Assembly: GCF_028368995.1 (NCBI RefSeq) | Contig: NZ_JAQNDL010000003.1 | Span: 2,016,001-2,080,000, forward strand | DNA length: 64,000 bases | From: Nannocystis bainbridge | Lineage (GTDB): Bacteria > Myxococcota_A > Polyangia > Nannocystales > Nannocystaceae | Direction: 5' to 3' | Part shown: positions 1,168-63,889 of the stretch, in pieces | Layout of the letters: each line of letters opens with the position of its first letter | How positions within the stretch are numbered: the stretch's first letter is position 1 | Made by a program: the position numbers and the translations under genes | The notes under the pieces: generated by a model | Seen by the model: the letters and a program-made list of their open reading frames with translations, nothing else | Database searches by the model: none | Told to the model about the DNA's origin: nothing

Positions 1168-1230
1168 ACATGTCCTTTCGACCAGATCGCATCGGCCCCC
1201 GGTCGAGCGATCGACCTGTCCCAAAGTACA
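1168..1230. repeat. Degenerate TGTC-N6-GACA modules
   Basis: ACA-TGTCCTTTCGACCA (1168-1184) and TGTCCCAAAGTACA (1217-1230) downstream of the receptor stop. Confidence 0.5.
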
Positions 1231-1402
1231 TCCCCCGGCGGCGCCCTCGACCCGGGTAAGGAGCAGCACGAGACCCCGCCACTCGCACCTTCGCCGACCC
1301 CGACGTCGAACCCGGCCCGTTCGCCGCGGCAGGCGGCGGCGCGCGGCCTCGCGCCGGCGAATCCTCTCGCGGGACCGCGTCAGGCGCCGGGGGCTCGCCG
1401 CG

Positions 1403-1438
1403 TATACTCGGCCCGACCTGTCCCCGCAGACAGGAGGA
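1403..1438 (+). promoter_or_regulatory. Putative -10 (TATACT), then perfect TGTC-N6-GACA abutting the RBS
   Basis: TATACT 1403-1408; TGTCCCCGCAGACA 1419-1432; GGAGG 1433-1437; ATG 1444. Confidence 0.45.
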
Positions 1439-1443
1439 GCCTC

Positions 1444-2676
1444 ATGGACGCAGCAGTCGGCAACCGCGCCACTCTCGCCTGGTCGCGCATGCAGACCCAG
1501 TTTCCGGCCGAGCTGGCCTCGACCGTCGCCTTTGTCACCGACCCCGCCGCCTCACAGGTCACGCGGGCCGCACCGACCCACCGCAGCATCTCGGTCTTGC
1601 CGCAGATCGAGACGGACCTCAGCGGCCAGCTGCGGCTCGTGCACGACCCGCGCGACCGTTACCGCTCGCTCGGCGTGGTCGGCGAGGGCGGCATGGGCGT
1701 GGTGGAGCACGCCGAGGACGTCGACATCGGCCGCCCGGTGGCGATCAAGCGGCTCCTGCCCGAGGCCTCCCACCCGCTCGGCGTGGCTCGCTTCGTCGGC
1801 GAGGTCCGGATCGTCGGCAGCCTCGAGCACCCCAACGTCGTGCCGATCCACGACGTCGGGCTCGACGCCGACGGCCGCTACTTCTTCGTCATGAAGTACG
1901 TCGAGGGCGAGACCCTCGGCGAGGTCATCGACAAGCTGCGCCGCGGCGACCCCGGGGTGCACGCCGCCTGGCCGTTCGAGCGCCGGGCCGAGATCGTCCT
2001 CTCCGTGCTGCGCGCGCTGGCCTACGCCCACGAGCGCGGCATCGTCCACCGCGACATCAAGCCCGACAACATCATGATCGGCCGCTTCGGCGAGGTGTGG
2101 CTGATGGACTGGGGCATCGCCAAGCGGATGGACGAGCCCGACCCCGGGGTCTCCACGGAGCGCAGCGTGGACCCGACCGCCGGCCTCATCGGCACGCCCG
2201 CGTACATGTCGCCCGAGCAGGTCCGCTGCGAGCCGCTCGACGCCCGCAGCGACCTCTACTCGGTCGCGGTCGTGCTCCACGAGTTCATCGGCCTGCGCCA
2301 CTACCTCGCCGACCGCGCCGACAACCTCCACGTCCTGCTCGACGCCATCGAGCGCGAGGACCCGCAGCTGCGCGCGTACGACACGACGCATCAGGGCCCG
2401 CCGCCCATCGAGCTGCAGATCGTCGCCGGCCGCGGCCTCGCCAAGGACCCGACCCAGCGCTACCAGTCGGCCGCCGAGATGCTGGCCGCCGTGCGCAGCT
2501 ACCTCGAGGGCCGCGGCGAGGTCCGCTGCGTCTACTCGTTCACCAAGCGGGCCATGCGCGAGAGCGGCCGCGCGGTCGACCGCTTCCCCCGCCTCGCCGT
2601 CGCGCTCTACTTCACCCTGATCGCCCTGGCCCTCGTCGGCCTGGCCGCGCTCGTCAAGCTGCTGCTGCTCGGCTGA
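1444..2676 (+). CDS. Hanks-type Ser/Thr protein kinase with C-terminal TM helix
   Basis: GEGGMG, VAIK, HRDIKPDN, DWG, GTPAYMSPEQ motifs; hydrophobic C-terminus; SD GGAGG. Confidence 0.95.
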   Translation: MDAAVGNRATLAWSRMQTQFPAELASTVAFVTDPAASQVTRAAPTHRSISVLPQIETDLSGQLRLVHDPRDRYRSLGVVGEGGMGVVEHAEDVDIGRPVAIKRLLPEASHPLGVARFVGEVRIVGSLEHPNVVPIHDVGLDADGRYFFVMKYVEGETLGEVIDKLRRGDPGVHAAWPFERRAEIVLSVLRALAYAHERGIVHRDIKPDNIMIGRFGEVWLMDWGIAKRMDEPDPGVSTERSVDPTAGLIGTPAYMSPEQVRCEPLDARSDLYSVAVVLHEFIGLRHYLADRADNLHVLLDAIEREDPQLRAYDTTHQGPPPIELQIVAGRGLAKDPTQRYQSAAEMLAAVRSYLEGRGEVRCVYSFTKRAMRESGRAVDRFPRLAVALYFTLIALALVGLAALVKLLLLG

Positions 2677-2690
2677 GCCCGCGCTGCCGA

Positions 2691-2740
2691 CATTCCCCGA
2701 GGGACATGCTCCATCGAGCATGTCCCTTCGATCATGTCCT
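2691..2740. repeat. Phased 14-bp module array (3-4 units)
   Basis: CAT(T/G) junctions at 2691, 2705, 2719, 2733; also folds as GAGGGACATGCTC/GAGCATGTCCCTT. Confidence 0.75.
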
Positions 2741-61414: not shown

Positions 61415-61507
61415 GCGTTTAGGCCGGCTCGCGGACAGTGGGCCGCGACGCGGGCTCGCGGGGGGACGGGGACAGGGACGGCGGCGCGACGCGGCCGCGA
61501 ACGCGGC

Positions 61508-62017
61508 TCAGGCCTGGTCGATGTCGGGGCCGAACACTTGCTCGCGCGCCGAGGGGCTGAGCCCGAGCGCCTCGAGGATCTTGCGCTTGGTATCCATGCG
61601 GCATGGACATCCCGACTCCACGCGGTCGATGGTTAGCGGGCTGACGCCGGCACGTCGCGCGAGCTCGGCCTTGCTCATCATGGCGGCCTGGCGCAGCTTG
61701 CGGACGTTGTTGGGCTGCACGCCCTTCCCCTTCGGGGTCGCGGTCGGGGTCGCGGTCGGTGTCGCGGTCGGTGTCGCGGTCGGTGTCGCGGCCCCGTTGT
61801 CGTCGGCGGCCTTGCGGGCTCGCTTCGGCGCCGGCGCCTCGACGGCGTTCGCGGCCGCGGGCTCGCCGACCTCGCCGGCCTCGCCGACCTCGCCACCATC
61901 GTCTGCCTCGCGCTCGCGCGGCGGCGCGTCCTCGCGGGCGTACAGCTCGGCTGTGTCCGCGGGGGCGGCTTGCTGCGGCGGCGGAGCTTGAAGCTCCTGC
62001 TTCGGGGTCGCGGTCAT
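61508..62017 (-). CDS. XRE-family HTH regulator with low-complexity N-terminal extension
   Basis: NNVRKLR..MMSKAELARRAGVSPLTIDRVESG; alternative GTG start at 61720. Confidence 0.85.
   Translation of the reverse strand: MTATPKQELQAPPPQQAAPADTAELYAREDAPPREREADDGGEVGEAGEVGEPAAANAVEAPAPKRARKAADDNGAATPTATPTATPTATPTATPKGKGVQPNNVRKLRQAAMMSKAELARRAGVSPLTIDRVESGCPCRMDTKRKILEALGLSPSAREQVFGPDIDQA
61732..61790. repeat. 12-bp coding tandem repeat (ATPT)
   Basis: TCGG(G/T)GTCGCGG repeated about 5 times. Confidence 0.85.
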
Positions 62018-62050
62018 GGGGCTGGCCGGTCGGGCTACGCTTTCCTACAC

Positions 62051-62079
62051 ATTGTCAGCCCCGGCAAGGGGTTCGTCAA
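62051..62079 (-). promoter_or_regulatory. Putative sigma70 promoter for XRE-pilMNO (TTGACG-17-GACAAT)
   Basis: AT-rich region upstream (62095-62145); -10 overlapped by TGTCAGCCCCGGCA. Confidence 0.55.
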
Positions 62080-62384
62080 CGTGGCAGGACCGTCTCAGTG
62101 ATACGTAAGTGAATGTTAGTGATATGGATTTGATAGGTCTTTGTAGCGATCCGAGCGACGCCCAGCACCGCCCCTCCGAGCTAGGTGAAAACGCTTCTGG
62201 GGGCAGCTGCGGGGCCACAGGCTGCGATTCGTGGCCCATGTGCGAAAATGCTCACCGGCGGGAACAGCGCGCGCGCGTCCACGCACGCCTGGGCCTTGGG
62301 CAGATCTCCCTGGGTCGCGCCGACCAATGCCGAGGCCGCCGACCGCGGTGCCGCGATGCGCGCGGATGGTAACCTCCCGGCGCC

Positions 62385-63869
62385 GTGACCACCGCAGACT
62401 TGATCCTCGCCATCGACCAGGGGACCACCGGCAGCACCTGCTTGCTCGTCGACCCGCAGCTCCGCGTGCTGGCGCGCGCGACCCGGGAGTTCCCACAGCA
62501 CTTTCCGCAGCCCGGGTGGGTCGAGCACGACCCTGACGAGCTGTACGCCTCCGTGCTAGCGACCGTGGCCGAGGTGCTGCAGACGAGCGGCGTGGAGCCG
62601 GCGCGCATCGCCGCCGTCGGCATCACCAACCAGCGCGAGACCAGCCTTTTGTGGGGTCGTCGTGACGGTCGGCCGCTGCACCGCGCGCTCGTGTGGCAGG
62701 ACCGGCGCACCGCCGACACCTGCGAGTCGCTCCGCGCCGCCGGCCACGAGGACCTCATCCGCGCGCGCACCGGGCTGCTGCTCGACCCTTACTTCGCCGC
62801 CACCAAGCTGGCGTGGGTCCTCGACCACGTGCCAGGCGCCCGCGCCCGCGCCGACGCAGGCGAGCTCGCGGCCGGCACCGTCGACACCTACCTCGTGTGG
62901 CGGCTGACCGCCGGCGCCGCCCACGTCTCGGAGCCGAGCAACGCCTCGCGCACCCTGCTCTGGCCGCTCCAAGGCGGCGGCTGGGACGAGCAGCTGTGCG
63001 GCCTCCTGCGCGTGCCCTCGGCGATCCTCCCGCGCGTCCTCCCGTGCACCGCTCGCTTCGGCGAGACCCGCGGCGTGCCCGGCCTGCCGGACGGCATCCC
63101 GATCCACGGCATCGCCGGCGACCAGCAGGCGGCCCTGTTCGGCCAGGCCTGCTTCGAGCCCGGCGAGGCCAAGTGCACCTACGGCACCGGCGCCTTCGCC
63201 ATGCTCAACACCGGCGACACCCCGGTCGCCTCGCGCCACGGCCTCCTCACCACGGTCGGCTGGCAGATCGGCGAGCGCACCACCTACTGCCTCGAGGGCA
63301 GCGCCTTCATGGCCGGCGCGGTCGTGCAATGGCTGCGCGACGGCCTCGGCTTCGTCGTCAAGGCCAGCGAGATCGAGGCCCTCGCCGCCAGCGTGCCCGA
63401 CAGCGGCGGCGTCATCCTCGTGCCTGCGCACGCGGGCCTCGGCGCGCCCTACTGGCGACCGCACGCGCGCGGCCTGATCAGCGGCATCACCCGCGGCACC
63501 GCCCGCGCGCACATCGCTCGCGCCGCGCTCGAGGGCATCGCCTTGCAGATCGCCGACCTGCTCCGCGCCATGAGCGCCGACATCGGCGCCCCGCTCAAGG
63601 CGCTCAAGGTCGACGGCGGCGCCGCGGCCAACGACCTCCTCATGCAGCTGCAGGCCGACCTCCTCGGCGTCCCGATCGCTCGCCCCACCATGCTCGAGGC
63701 CACCGCTCTCGGCGCCGTCTTCCTCGCCGGCCTCGGCGCCGGCGTCTGGTCCGACACCACCGCCCTATCCGCCGCCTGGAAGCAGGACCGCGCCTTTACC
63801 CCGCGGCCCCCGACCACCGCCCTGGCGACCCTGCGCAGCAACTGGGAGCGCGCTGTCGCCCTGGCCTGA
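62385..63869 (+). CDS. glpK: Glycerol kinase
   Basis: AIDQGTTGS, GITNQRET, WQDRRT, GDQQAALFGQ, KCTYGTG, VDGG. Confidence 0.98.
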   Translation: MTTADLILAIDQGTTGSTCLLVDPQLRVLARATREFPQHFPQPGWVEHDPDELYASVLATVAEVLQTSGVEPARIAAVGITNQRETSLLWGRRDGRPLHRALVWQDRRTADTCESLRAAGHEDLIRARTGLLLDPYFAATKLAWVLDHVPGARARADAGELAAGTVDTYLVWRLTAGAAHVSEPSNASRTLLWPLQGGGWDEQLCGLLRVPSAILPRVLPCTARFGETRGVPGLPDGIPIHGIAGDQQAALFGQACFEPGEAKCTYGTGAFAMLNTGDTPVASRHGLLTTVGWQIGERTTYCLEGSAFMAGAVVQWLRDGLGFVVKASEIEALAASVPDSGGVILVPAHAGLGAPYWRPHARGLISGITRGTARAHIARAALEGIALQIADLLRAMSADIGAPLKALKVDGGAAANDLLMQLQADLLGVPIARPTMLEATALGAVFLAGLGAGVWSDTTALSAAWKQDRAFTPRPPTTALATLRSNWERAVALA

Positions 63870-63889
63870 GGGACATGTCCCGAAGGCCA
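63862..63889. repeat. Two tandem 14-bp modules spanning the glpK stop
   Basis: TGGCCTGAGGGACA-TGTCCCGAAGGCCA. Confidence 0.75.

What the first reader, a model, noticed from the sequence alone, without database searches (positions are those of the whole stretch)
1168..63889. Highly iterated 14-bp palindromic module TGTC-N6-GACA forming phased arrays: candidate undescribed DNA-binding-site or repeat system
Seen: at least 20 perfect copies by eye (1419, 7065, 11682, 29129, 46314, 46344, plus 14 in the sgmX-like gene) and many 1-2 mismatch copies. A rough base-composition estimate at 72% GC gives about 0.4 per 64 kb, though copies inside tandem duplications are not independent. The 6-nt spacer varies freely and often cannot pair (cccgca, ctccga, ccttga, cgaaga, cgtcag), but its length is fixed. 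Modules stack head-to-tail, so the CATG junction recurs at exact 14-bp intervals at several loci (2691-2733, 6979-7077, 12815-12857, 13686-13728, 19004-19046, 38191-38219). Known: 4-bp half-sites around a 6-bp spacer is the geometry of HTH-dimer operators such as phage 434 (ACAA-N6-TTGT). It differs from CRP (TGTGA-N6-TCACA) and from the N8-spaced MrpC motif. Inference: a fixed-geometry site for a dimeric protein (nucleoid organiser, roadblock or regulator, analogous to matS/NBS/SBS), or a self-amplifying REP/HIP-like element specific to this lineage.
Basis: partly seen in the sequence, partly recalled or inferred. Interest (0 to 1): 0.85.

Follow-up and report, generated by a model that had tools for sequence, protein, structure and literature searches.

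The report
Genome-wide palindrome with candidate XRE reader
A 14-base two-armed DNA word is written thousands of times through the chromosomes of a group of soil myxobacteria, mostly just behind genes, and a small repressor-like protein found only in that same group is a good, still untested candidate for the protein that binds it.

Summary
Real. The window holds 21 perfect TGTC-N6-GACA (Markov mean 0.8); the genome holds 3,663, against 78 at N5 and 120 at N7. Units stack in exact 14-bp phase and favour gene ends (42% of convergent, 11% of divergent gaps). In coding DNA they exceed synonymous expectation about 22-fold. Between congeners T1, G2 and C4 diverge about 1%, spacer and flanks 12-25%. 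There is no stem covariation, no copied families and no RAYT, so this is a double-stranded protein site, not REP or hairpin. It is confined to three Nannocystaceae genera (23 of 73 genomes). This scan already reported the motif in this genome at least seven times without a reader. New here: a 126-aa SinR-like XRE protein occurs in 20 of those 23 genomes (misses are 60-67% complete) and 0 of 50 others. Its helix-turn-helix is essentially invariant, it is duplicated in Nannocystis, and a near-site lies upstream in 22 of 30 loci. Binding is untested, and clade-restricted genes can share a profile by descent. The site geometry equals PadR operators, but no PadR was found in this genome. Best guess: an abundant dimer that marks and insulates gene ends.

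The parts
1419..1432 (.). single perfect site between TonB-like gene and Ser/Thr kinase gene
   Evidence: same site kept in two congeners
2691..2745 (.). degenerate phased array just after the kinase stop codon (2676)
   Evidence: congeners carry a different single site at the same place
6967..7078 (.). in-gene phased units on a 42-bp period inside ORF 5920-8277(-)
11680..11820 (.). repeated 1.5-unit modules after the histidine kinase stop (11675)
12817..12858 (.). three-unit array in convergent gap 12797-12876
13688..13751 (.). degenerate array plus single site after ORF 13758-18353(-)
18199..18226 (.). two-unit in-gene array
19002..19055 (.). four-junction array in convergent gap 18944-19153; two identical units show local slippage
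29125..29277 (.). sites carried in a 43-46-bp tandem repeat after ORF 26883-29075
38179..38343 (.). array and repeated sites in convergent gap 38172-38414
46314..46357 (.). two perfect sites downstream of clpX
50860..53558 (.). 15 perfect in-frame sites in the low-complexity linker of the TPR gene 50054-54358(-), encoding AVPADS/VPEDMS-type peptides
63862..63889 (.). two-unit array over the end of the FGGY-family kinase gene
61508..62017 (-). XRE gene of the window, used only as a control: order-wide, not the candidate reader (the candidate lies outside the window at G000 C1:4266696-4267073(-), paralog C3:1091678-1092052(+))

Best explanation
The word is a double-stranded binding site for an abundant two-fold-symmetric protein, most likely the clade-specific 126-aa XRE protein (G000 C1:4266696-4267073, paralog C3:1091678-1092052). 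SHOWN: fixed geometry, selection on T1-G2-x-C4 of each half, 14-bp phasing with randomised spacers, gene-end bias, co-distribution of gene and motif, XRE fold with a two-helix C-terminal part. INFERRED: each dimer reads TG-x-C on both arms, the invariant basic insert (PPKxRRK...GWR) contacts neighbouring DNA or the next dimer, dimers bind cooperatively side by side sharing the CATG junction (three dimers per four helical turns), and SinR-like C-terminal hooks may bridge distant sites. Most likely job: a chromosome-wide mark at transcription-unit ends that acts as roadblock or topological insulator and helps organise an 11-13 Mb chromosome. Sites arise in place by point mutation and occasional slippage wherever constraint is low. 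My odds: protein site about 0.85; this XRE given a protein site about 0.65; gene-end insulator role given that about 0.5.
For: Motif. Distribution: high only in g1 (11 of 11, 53-331 per Mb), g2 (5 of 5) and g4 (7 of 7, both 30-144 per Mb); 50 other genomes 2-22 per Mb; none of 250 other phylum genomes above 236 copies. XRE found in 20 of 23 motif-rich genomes at 68-100% identity, two copies in all 11 g1 genomes, 0 of 50 others at E<=1e-8; controls: its neighbour gene is in 44 of those 50, the window's XRE in 49 of 50; 0 of 11 syntenic outgroup loci carry it; typical orthologue identity to G000 is similar inside (median 52-56%) and outside (37-54%) the clade. Helix-turn-helix TIEELAxxTGLTVTTVNK invariant in 42 sequences. 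Codon bias rank 46 of 8,050 genes. <=1-mismatch site within 230 bp upstream in 22 of 30 loci, 8 of 10 for the divergently placed paralog, background 21% overall and 19% divergent. Model pLDDT 80; top Foldseek match SinR 1b0n (E 3.5e-4); VIA Z 11.6 (rmsd 1.0, 66 aligned) to C.AhdI. Precedent for adjacent XRE dimers: C.Esp1396I tetramer on a 35-bp double operator (PMC4041747, passages); SinR tetramer with proposed looping (PMC3163267, passages).
Against: No binding data. g1+g2+g4 are probably one clade, so the profile is one evolutionary event and any gene gained on that branch would match; I could not count such genes genome-wide and tested only six candidates and two controls. The XRE was picked after looking at the data. 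Upstream near-sites are shared by descent and, for copy A, also lie at the end of the preceding gene; 8 of 30 loci lack one. Two Roseobacter genomes with a similar phased repeat have no homologue. Contigs of related XREs with another helix show no enriched palindrome, but only about 12 kb was scanned. The paralog has ordinary codon bias (rank 1,157). Sites are slightly rarer behind genes with the strongest expression-type codon bias and absent from the ribosomal-protein superoperon, which a terminator model does not predict. No evidence bears directly on termination or topology.
Confidence: 0.55

Rival explanations
1. Protein site, but the reader is another protein, for example a diverged winged-helix protein working like PadR, whose dimers overlap at the CATG junctions.
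For: B. subtilis PadR reads an 18-bp C-N-T-G-N-A-N6-T-N-C-A-N-G site (PMC5728393 section 18); the extended motif here is C-M-T-G-T-C-N6-G-A-C-A-K-G. 7 of 35 non-Nannocystis scan loci have the array next to an ORF starting like PadR; two confirmed by Pfam. Similar arrays sit by SoFic-type Fic, GntR-FCD and a GAF sigma-54 activator gene.
Against: No PF03551 match in G000 or over cut-off in single-contig G001; PadR patchy in the order. No SoFic homologue in G000, G001, G005, G007. A highly expressed winged-helix family and a Fis-like family are order-wide with the same recognition helix in and outside the clade.
Confidence: 0.25
2. Molecular drive rather than chromosomal function: a DNA-uptake, recombination or methyl-directed repair bias writes the word wherever tolerated (HIP1- or DUS-like), so gene ends and linkers are only the free space.
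For: Placement follows low constraint (convergent gaps, protein linkers); about one third is coding; sites are made in place, not copied; 2 gains among 39 near-sites against 0 among 62 control near-sites, too few to judge.
Against: Strict 14-bp arrays with spacers near random (2.17 vs 2.07 of 6 identical) suggest cooperative occupancy; the adenine pair at 3/12 is the least conserved, unlike a methylase target; a clade-matched DNA-binding protein exists. Methylome and uptake were not tested.
Confidence: 0.12
3. REP/MITE-like self-amplified repeat or RNA hairpin terminator.
For: Location after stop codons; commonest spacers can form UUCG loops; Roseobacter look-alikes are hairpin repeats with shared arms.
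Against: No covariation at 5/10 or 6/9; no sense-strand excess of UUCG (38 vs 26) or GNRA (32 vs 28) among 756 sites; no Y1_Tnp in G000, G001, G011, G013; no dispersed near-identical families, closest pair 5 of 38 differences; retron-like loci lack the word in their msr-msd region; no Rfam match.
Confidence: 0.08

Closest known systems
HIP1 of cyanobacteria (PMC5861425, passages read)
   Same: Hyper-abundant palindrome, coding and non-coding, conserved by selection, proposed role in chromosome architecture.
   Different: HIP1 is a contiguous 8-mer with no binder found by EMSA; here the word is gapped, phased at 14 bp, gene-end biased and has a candidate reader.
SinR and RM controller proteins C.AhdI / C.Esp1396I (XRE family; PMC3163267, PMC4041747, passages read)
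   Same: Fold of the candidate; dimer on an inverted repeat; adjacent dimers or tetramers; SinR's pyrimidine-then-purine centre.
   Different: They bind a few promoters; here thousands of sites, mostly 3' of genes; the candidate has a basic insert and 18-33% identity.
PadR/AphA operators (PMC5728393 section 18; PMC6855506 passages)
   Same: 18-bp C-N-T-G..N6..C-A-N-G geometry; tandem phased copies beside PadR genes in actinomycetes.
   Different: Local autoregulatory operators; position 6 of the half-site is A in PadR, C here; no PadR found in G000.
REP/BIME elements with RAYT (PMC3733652, passages read)
   Same: Many copies, extragenic, after stop codons, convergent bias.
   Different: No stem covariation, no GTAG/CGTC tag, no copy families, no RAYT.
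MatP/matS, SlmA/SBS, Noc/NBS, RacA/ram (recalled, not checked in a call)
   Same: Sequence-specific chromosome-organising protein-site pairs.
   Different: Tens to low hundreds of sites with positional bias; here thousands, spread over all contigs.
MrpC site TGTYN8RAC (PMC4320627, passages read)
   Same: Myxobacterial palindromic site beginning TGTY.
   Different: N8 spacing is depleted here (29 copies); promoter-located.

Membership tests
REP/BIME | stem-loop with compensatory pairing | tested here: not met
   pair ratios about 1 at 5/10 and 6/9; half-sites decay independently
REP/BIME | cognate RAYT in the genome | tested here: not met
   PF01797 0 matches in G000, G001, G011, G013; control rings in 6 of 14; assemblies 90-94% complete
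REP/BIME | dispersed families of near-identical copies | tested here: not met
REP/BIME | extragenic, 3' and convergent bias | tested here: met
HIP1-like | hyper-abundance with selection in coding and non-coding DNA | tested here: met
HIP1-like | contiguous palindrome | tested here: not met
   gapped 4-6-4 word
HIP1-like | associated methyltransferase (recalled feature) | not tested
   no methylome or methylase search
PadR regulon | 18-bp CNTG-type operator with 6-bp spacer | tested here: met
   (differs at half-site position 6)
PadR regulon | PadR gene in the genome | tested here: not met
XRE (HTH_3) family, candidate protein | Cro/C1-type helix-turn-helix domain | tested here: met
   PF01381 E 1.6e-12
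SinR-like | C-terminal two-helix oligomerisation hook | tested here: inconclusive
   two helices 93-106 and 110-124 at pLDDT 61-77; full-length Foldseek match to 1b0n has rmsd 7.5; oligomer state not predicted
XRE-site pair | specific binding of the protein to the motif | not testable with these tools
   needs EMSA or ChIP
retron msDNA-derived repeats of Nannocystis | repeat matches msd of a retron | tested here: inconclusive
   word absent from the msr-msd region of one retron-like locus, present only downstream of another; the 1997 paper was seen only as a citation

The most novel reading that the evidence does not exclude
A phage-repressor-type XRE protein was recruited as a sequence-specific, filament-forming chromosome protein whose thousands of sites mark gene ends and are selected even inside coding sequence, reshaping protein linkers: a HIP-scale genomic word with an identified reader, acting as a protein-based terminator/insulator system new to bacteria.
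Probability: 0.3. Interest if true: 0.92.

Novelty: new variant of a known kind. Interest (0 to 1): 0.8.

Why it matters
Hyper-abundant genomic words such as HIP1 have lacked a reader for decades (PMC5861425). Here a word of similar abundance comes with one small, clonable candidate protein, so the question becomes a single EMSA and a ChIP-seq in a culturable genus. If right, it shows a transcription-factor fold turned into a genome-wide architectural or termination factor, with site number and phasing rising where the gene duplicated, and DNA-level selection writing peptides into proteins.

Tried and rejected
Rfam: no match. RAYT: none; the weak hit in G342 has unrelated GTAG repeats. Retron origin: not supported. 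MerR-family screen, 20 matches, no convincing candidate. Promoter-site screen of 222 genes: nothing decisive. Winged-helix NAP-like family: 69 of 73 genomes, same helix. Fis-like family: 71 of 73, expanded in the clade but same helix. PadR (53, 58, 62, 66, 75), GntR (6 matches listed, not followed further; 64) and SoFic: no support. Other hyper-abundant spaced palindromes in four outgroup genera: none in 100 kb each, positive control recovered. Gene gain/loss junction idea (attC-like): arrays often sit at alignment breaks but so do 3' gaps generally; not separable. Related-XRE contigs: 4 loci, too little DNA (131, 133). PDB sequence searches: 0 hits. Dimer prediction was never run, so the oligomer state is open. 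One script timed out; a single-sequence phmmer screen (63) was insensitive and was replaced by a profile search. Literature searches found no description of the motif or protein; the spaced-motif survey PMC5217627 (main-text passages; its Table S2 not seen), PMC3733652 (passages) and the XRE motif survey PMC12565409 (passages and supplement search) do not name it. Subscription papers were not searchable.
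Full report
OBSERVATION. The window (G000:C2:2016001-2080000) has 21 perfect TGTC-N6-GACA and 52 one-mismatch copies; other spacings give 0-2. 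Markov simulation gives 0.785 on average, at most 4 in 200. The 11.05-Mb genome has 3,663 perfect copies against 78 (N5), 120 (N7) and 29 (N8); its top ten spaced-palindrome signals all come from this word and its 14-bp stacking. Chains with up to 2 mismatches per unit reach 8 units.

WHERE IT LIES. With my own gene calls (8,050 genes), 2,372 sites are intergenic and 1,291 coding. 42% of convergent, 19% of tandem and 11% of divergent gaps hold one; density peaks 0-30 bp after stop codons. In coding DNA 1,264 copies stand against 48-63 after synonymous resampling, while N3 and N9 show no excess. In-gene copies crowd low-complexity linkers. Sites cover all five contigs; long deserts include the ribosomal-protein superoperon and lower-GC stretches.

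WHAT KIND OF SIGNAL. Halves decay independently, positions 5/10 and 6/9 do not covary, and tetraloop-like spacers show no clear strand bias. T1, G2 and C4 are strict, position 3 is loose. Between two congeners (280 kb each, 93.4% identical; 53 of 82 and 57 of 85 sites aligned without gaps) non-coding sites differ at 2, 1 and 2 of 178 for positions 1, 2 and 4, at 15 of 178 for position 3, 12-19% in the spacer and 15-25% in near flanks; four-fold sites differ 7.6%. Alignment anchoring may inflate this, but the contrast within the same gapless 14-mer does not depend on it. Sites often keep their place behind a gene while spacer and unit number change. Adjacent spacers are barely more alike than random and there are no dispersed copy families. 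No RAYT, no Rfam hit. This is the signature of a double-stranded site read by a symmetric protein, built in place.

DISTRIBUTION. In 73 genomes of the order the word is abundant in g1 (11 of 11; 240-3,957), g2 (5 of 5; 503-705) and g4 (7 of 7; 283-1,335) and near background in 50 genomes of 14 genera (16-186). Perfect head-to-tail extension is mainly a g1 trait. No other genome among 250 sampled from the phylum exceeds 236. Four outgroup genera show no replacement motif in 100 kb each.

LOOK-ALIKES ELSEWHERE. Of 35 non-Nannocystis loci, 7 lie beside a PadR-type start; others lie by SoFic-type Fic, GntR-FCD and sigma-54 activator genes. The PadR operator has the same 18-bp geometry (PMC5728393). 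So several DNA-binding folds use this phased arrangement locally. Two Roseobacter genomes carry tens of such repeats as hairpins with shared arms; 200 relatives of one have at most 11 hits. But PadR and SoFic were not found in G000.

CANDIDATE READER. Ranking genes by ribosomal-protein-like codon use gave candidates; a winged-helix family and a Fis-like family proved order-wide. The XRE at C1:4266696-4267073 (rank 46 of 8,050) is present in 20 of 23 motif-rich genomes, twice in every g1 genome, missing only in three assemblies 60-67% complete, and in 0 of 50 others. The same search finds its neighbour gene in 44 and the window's own XRE in 49 of those 50; 11 syntenic outgroup loci lack it; a profile finds only one weak further hit in 250 phylum genomes. 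The protein database returns 35 hits, full-length ones 58-100% identical; distant relatives have a different recognition helix. The helix-turn-helix and a basic insert are invariant or nearly so in 42 sequences. The model (pLDDT 80) is an XRE domain plus two C-terminal helices; SinR and controller proteins rank first. A near-site lies upstream in 22 of 30 loci against about 21% background.

LIMITS. The profile is one gain on one branch; related genomes are not independent; other clade-specific DNA-binding genes were not enumerated; the candidate was chosen after several failures; no binding, expression or termination data exist here; the Roseobacter repeats lack the protein; relatives' contigs gave no test.

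MECHANISM (inferred). Dimers read TG-x-C on each arm ten base pairs apart, neighbours pack at 14 bp sharing the CATG junction, as controller-protein dimers pack on a double operator (PMC4041747), and may bridge sites as proposed for SinR (PMC3163267). Gene-end and convergent bias suggests a roadblock or insulator where transcription units meet; tolerance of free space explains part of that bias equally well.

VERDICT. Observation confirmed; protein-site reading supported; REP reading rejected; reader named with moderate confidence (0.55). Not found in print in nine searches. Earlier reports of this scan describe the same motif in this genome; none seen or 108 names a reader.

Noticed in passing
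L106:509-1093(-) (G000 C2:1707006-1707593): 195-aa basic protein, helical N-terminus, Lys/Ala/Pro linker and C-terminal winged helix, codon-bias rank 3 of 8,050, no Pfam family, 7 matches in G000, found in 69 of 73 genomes; looks like an undescribed H-NS/Rok-style nucleoid protein of Myxococcota.
   Followed up: partly
L111-L120, L146-L175: Stand-alone Fis-like (HTH_8) proteins of about 70 aa: 12 in G000, 4-16 in g1, 7-8 in g2, 3-8 in g4, 0-4 elsewhere, with a nearly fixed recognition helix.
   Followed up: partly
L123:217-411(-): Bacterial histone-fold protein with high codon bias.
   Followed up: no
L311-L337, L388-L395, L412-L440: Roseovarius and Sulfitobacter genomes carry dispersed hairpin repeats with the same 14-bp phased core and mosaic arms; one copy lies in a terminase-portal-like gap; sporadic in the family; driver unknown.
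   Followed up: partly
L313, L323, L214, L226, L231, L245, L252, L264, L283: Phased TGTC-N6-GACA arrays directly upstream of actinomycete PadR genes: a predicted operator for that subfamily.
   Followed up: partly
L411, L414: Long degenerate 14-bp phased arrays beside SoFic-type Fic genes or remnants in Planctomycetaceae and Lautropia MAGs.
   Followed up: partly
L044, L045, L041-L043: Two retron-like reverse transcriptases, one with a clear inverted-repeat pair upstream, and three near-identical group II intron-like copies in G000.
   Followed up: partly
L003:2979 and 3909; G000 C1:455540-457042: ABC-F gene with in-frame sites at matching places in two genera; one coincides with a conserved peptide.
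   Followed up: partly
window 12798-13680: Segment with a 165-aa ORF absent from congeners and bracketed by arrays on both sides.
   Followed up: partly
window 61508-62017: XRE gene just upstream of pilM, single copy and 79-99% identical in 70 of 73 genomes of the order.
   Followed up: partly
L486:1282-2400: RAYT-like gene with its own GTAG repeat array in the Sulfitobacter genome, below the Pfam cut-off.
   Followed up: partly
P0036-P0051: Wider family of about 120-aa XRE proteins with a basic insert and other recognition helices, known mostly from short metagenome contigs.
   Followed up: partly
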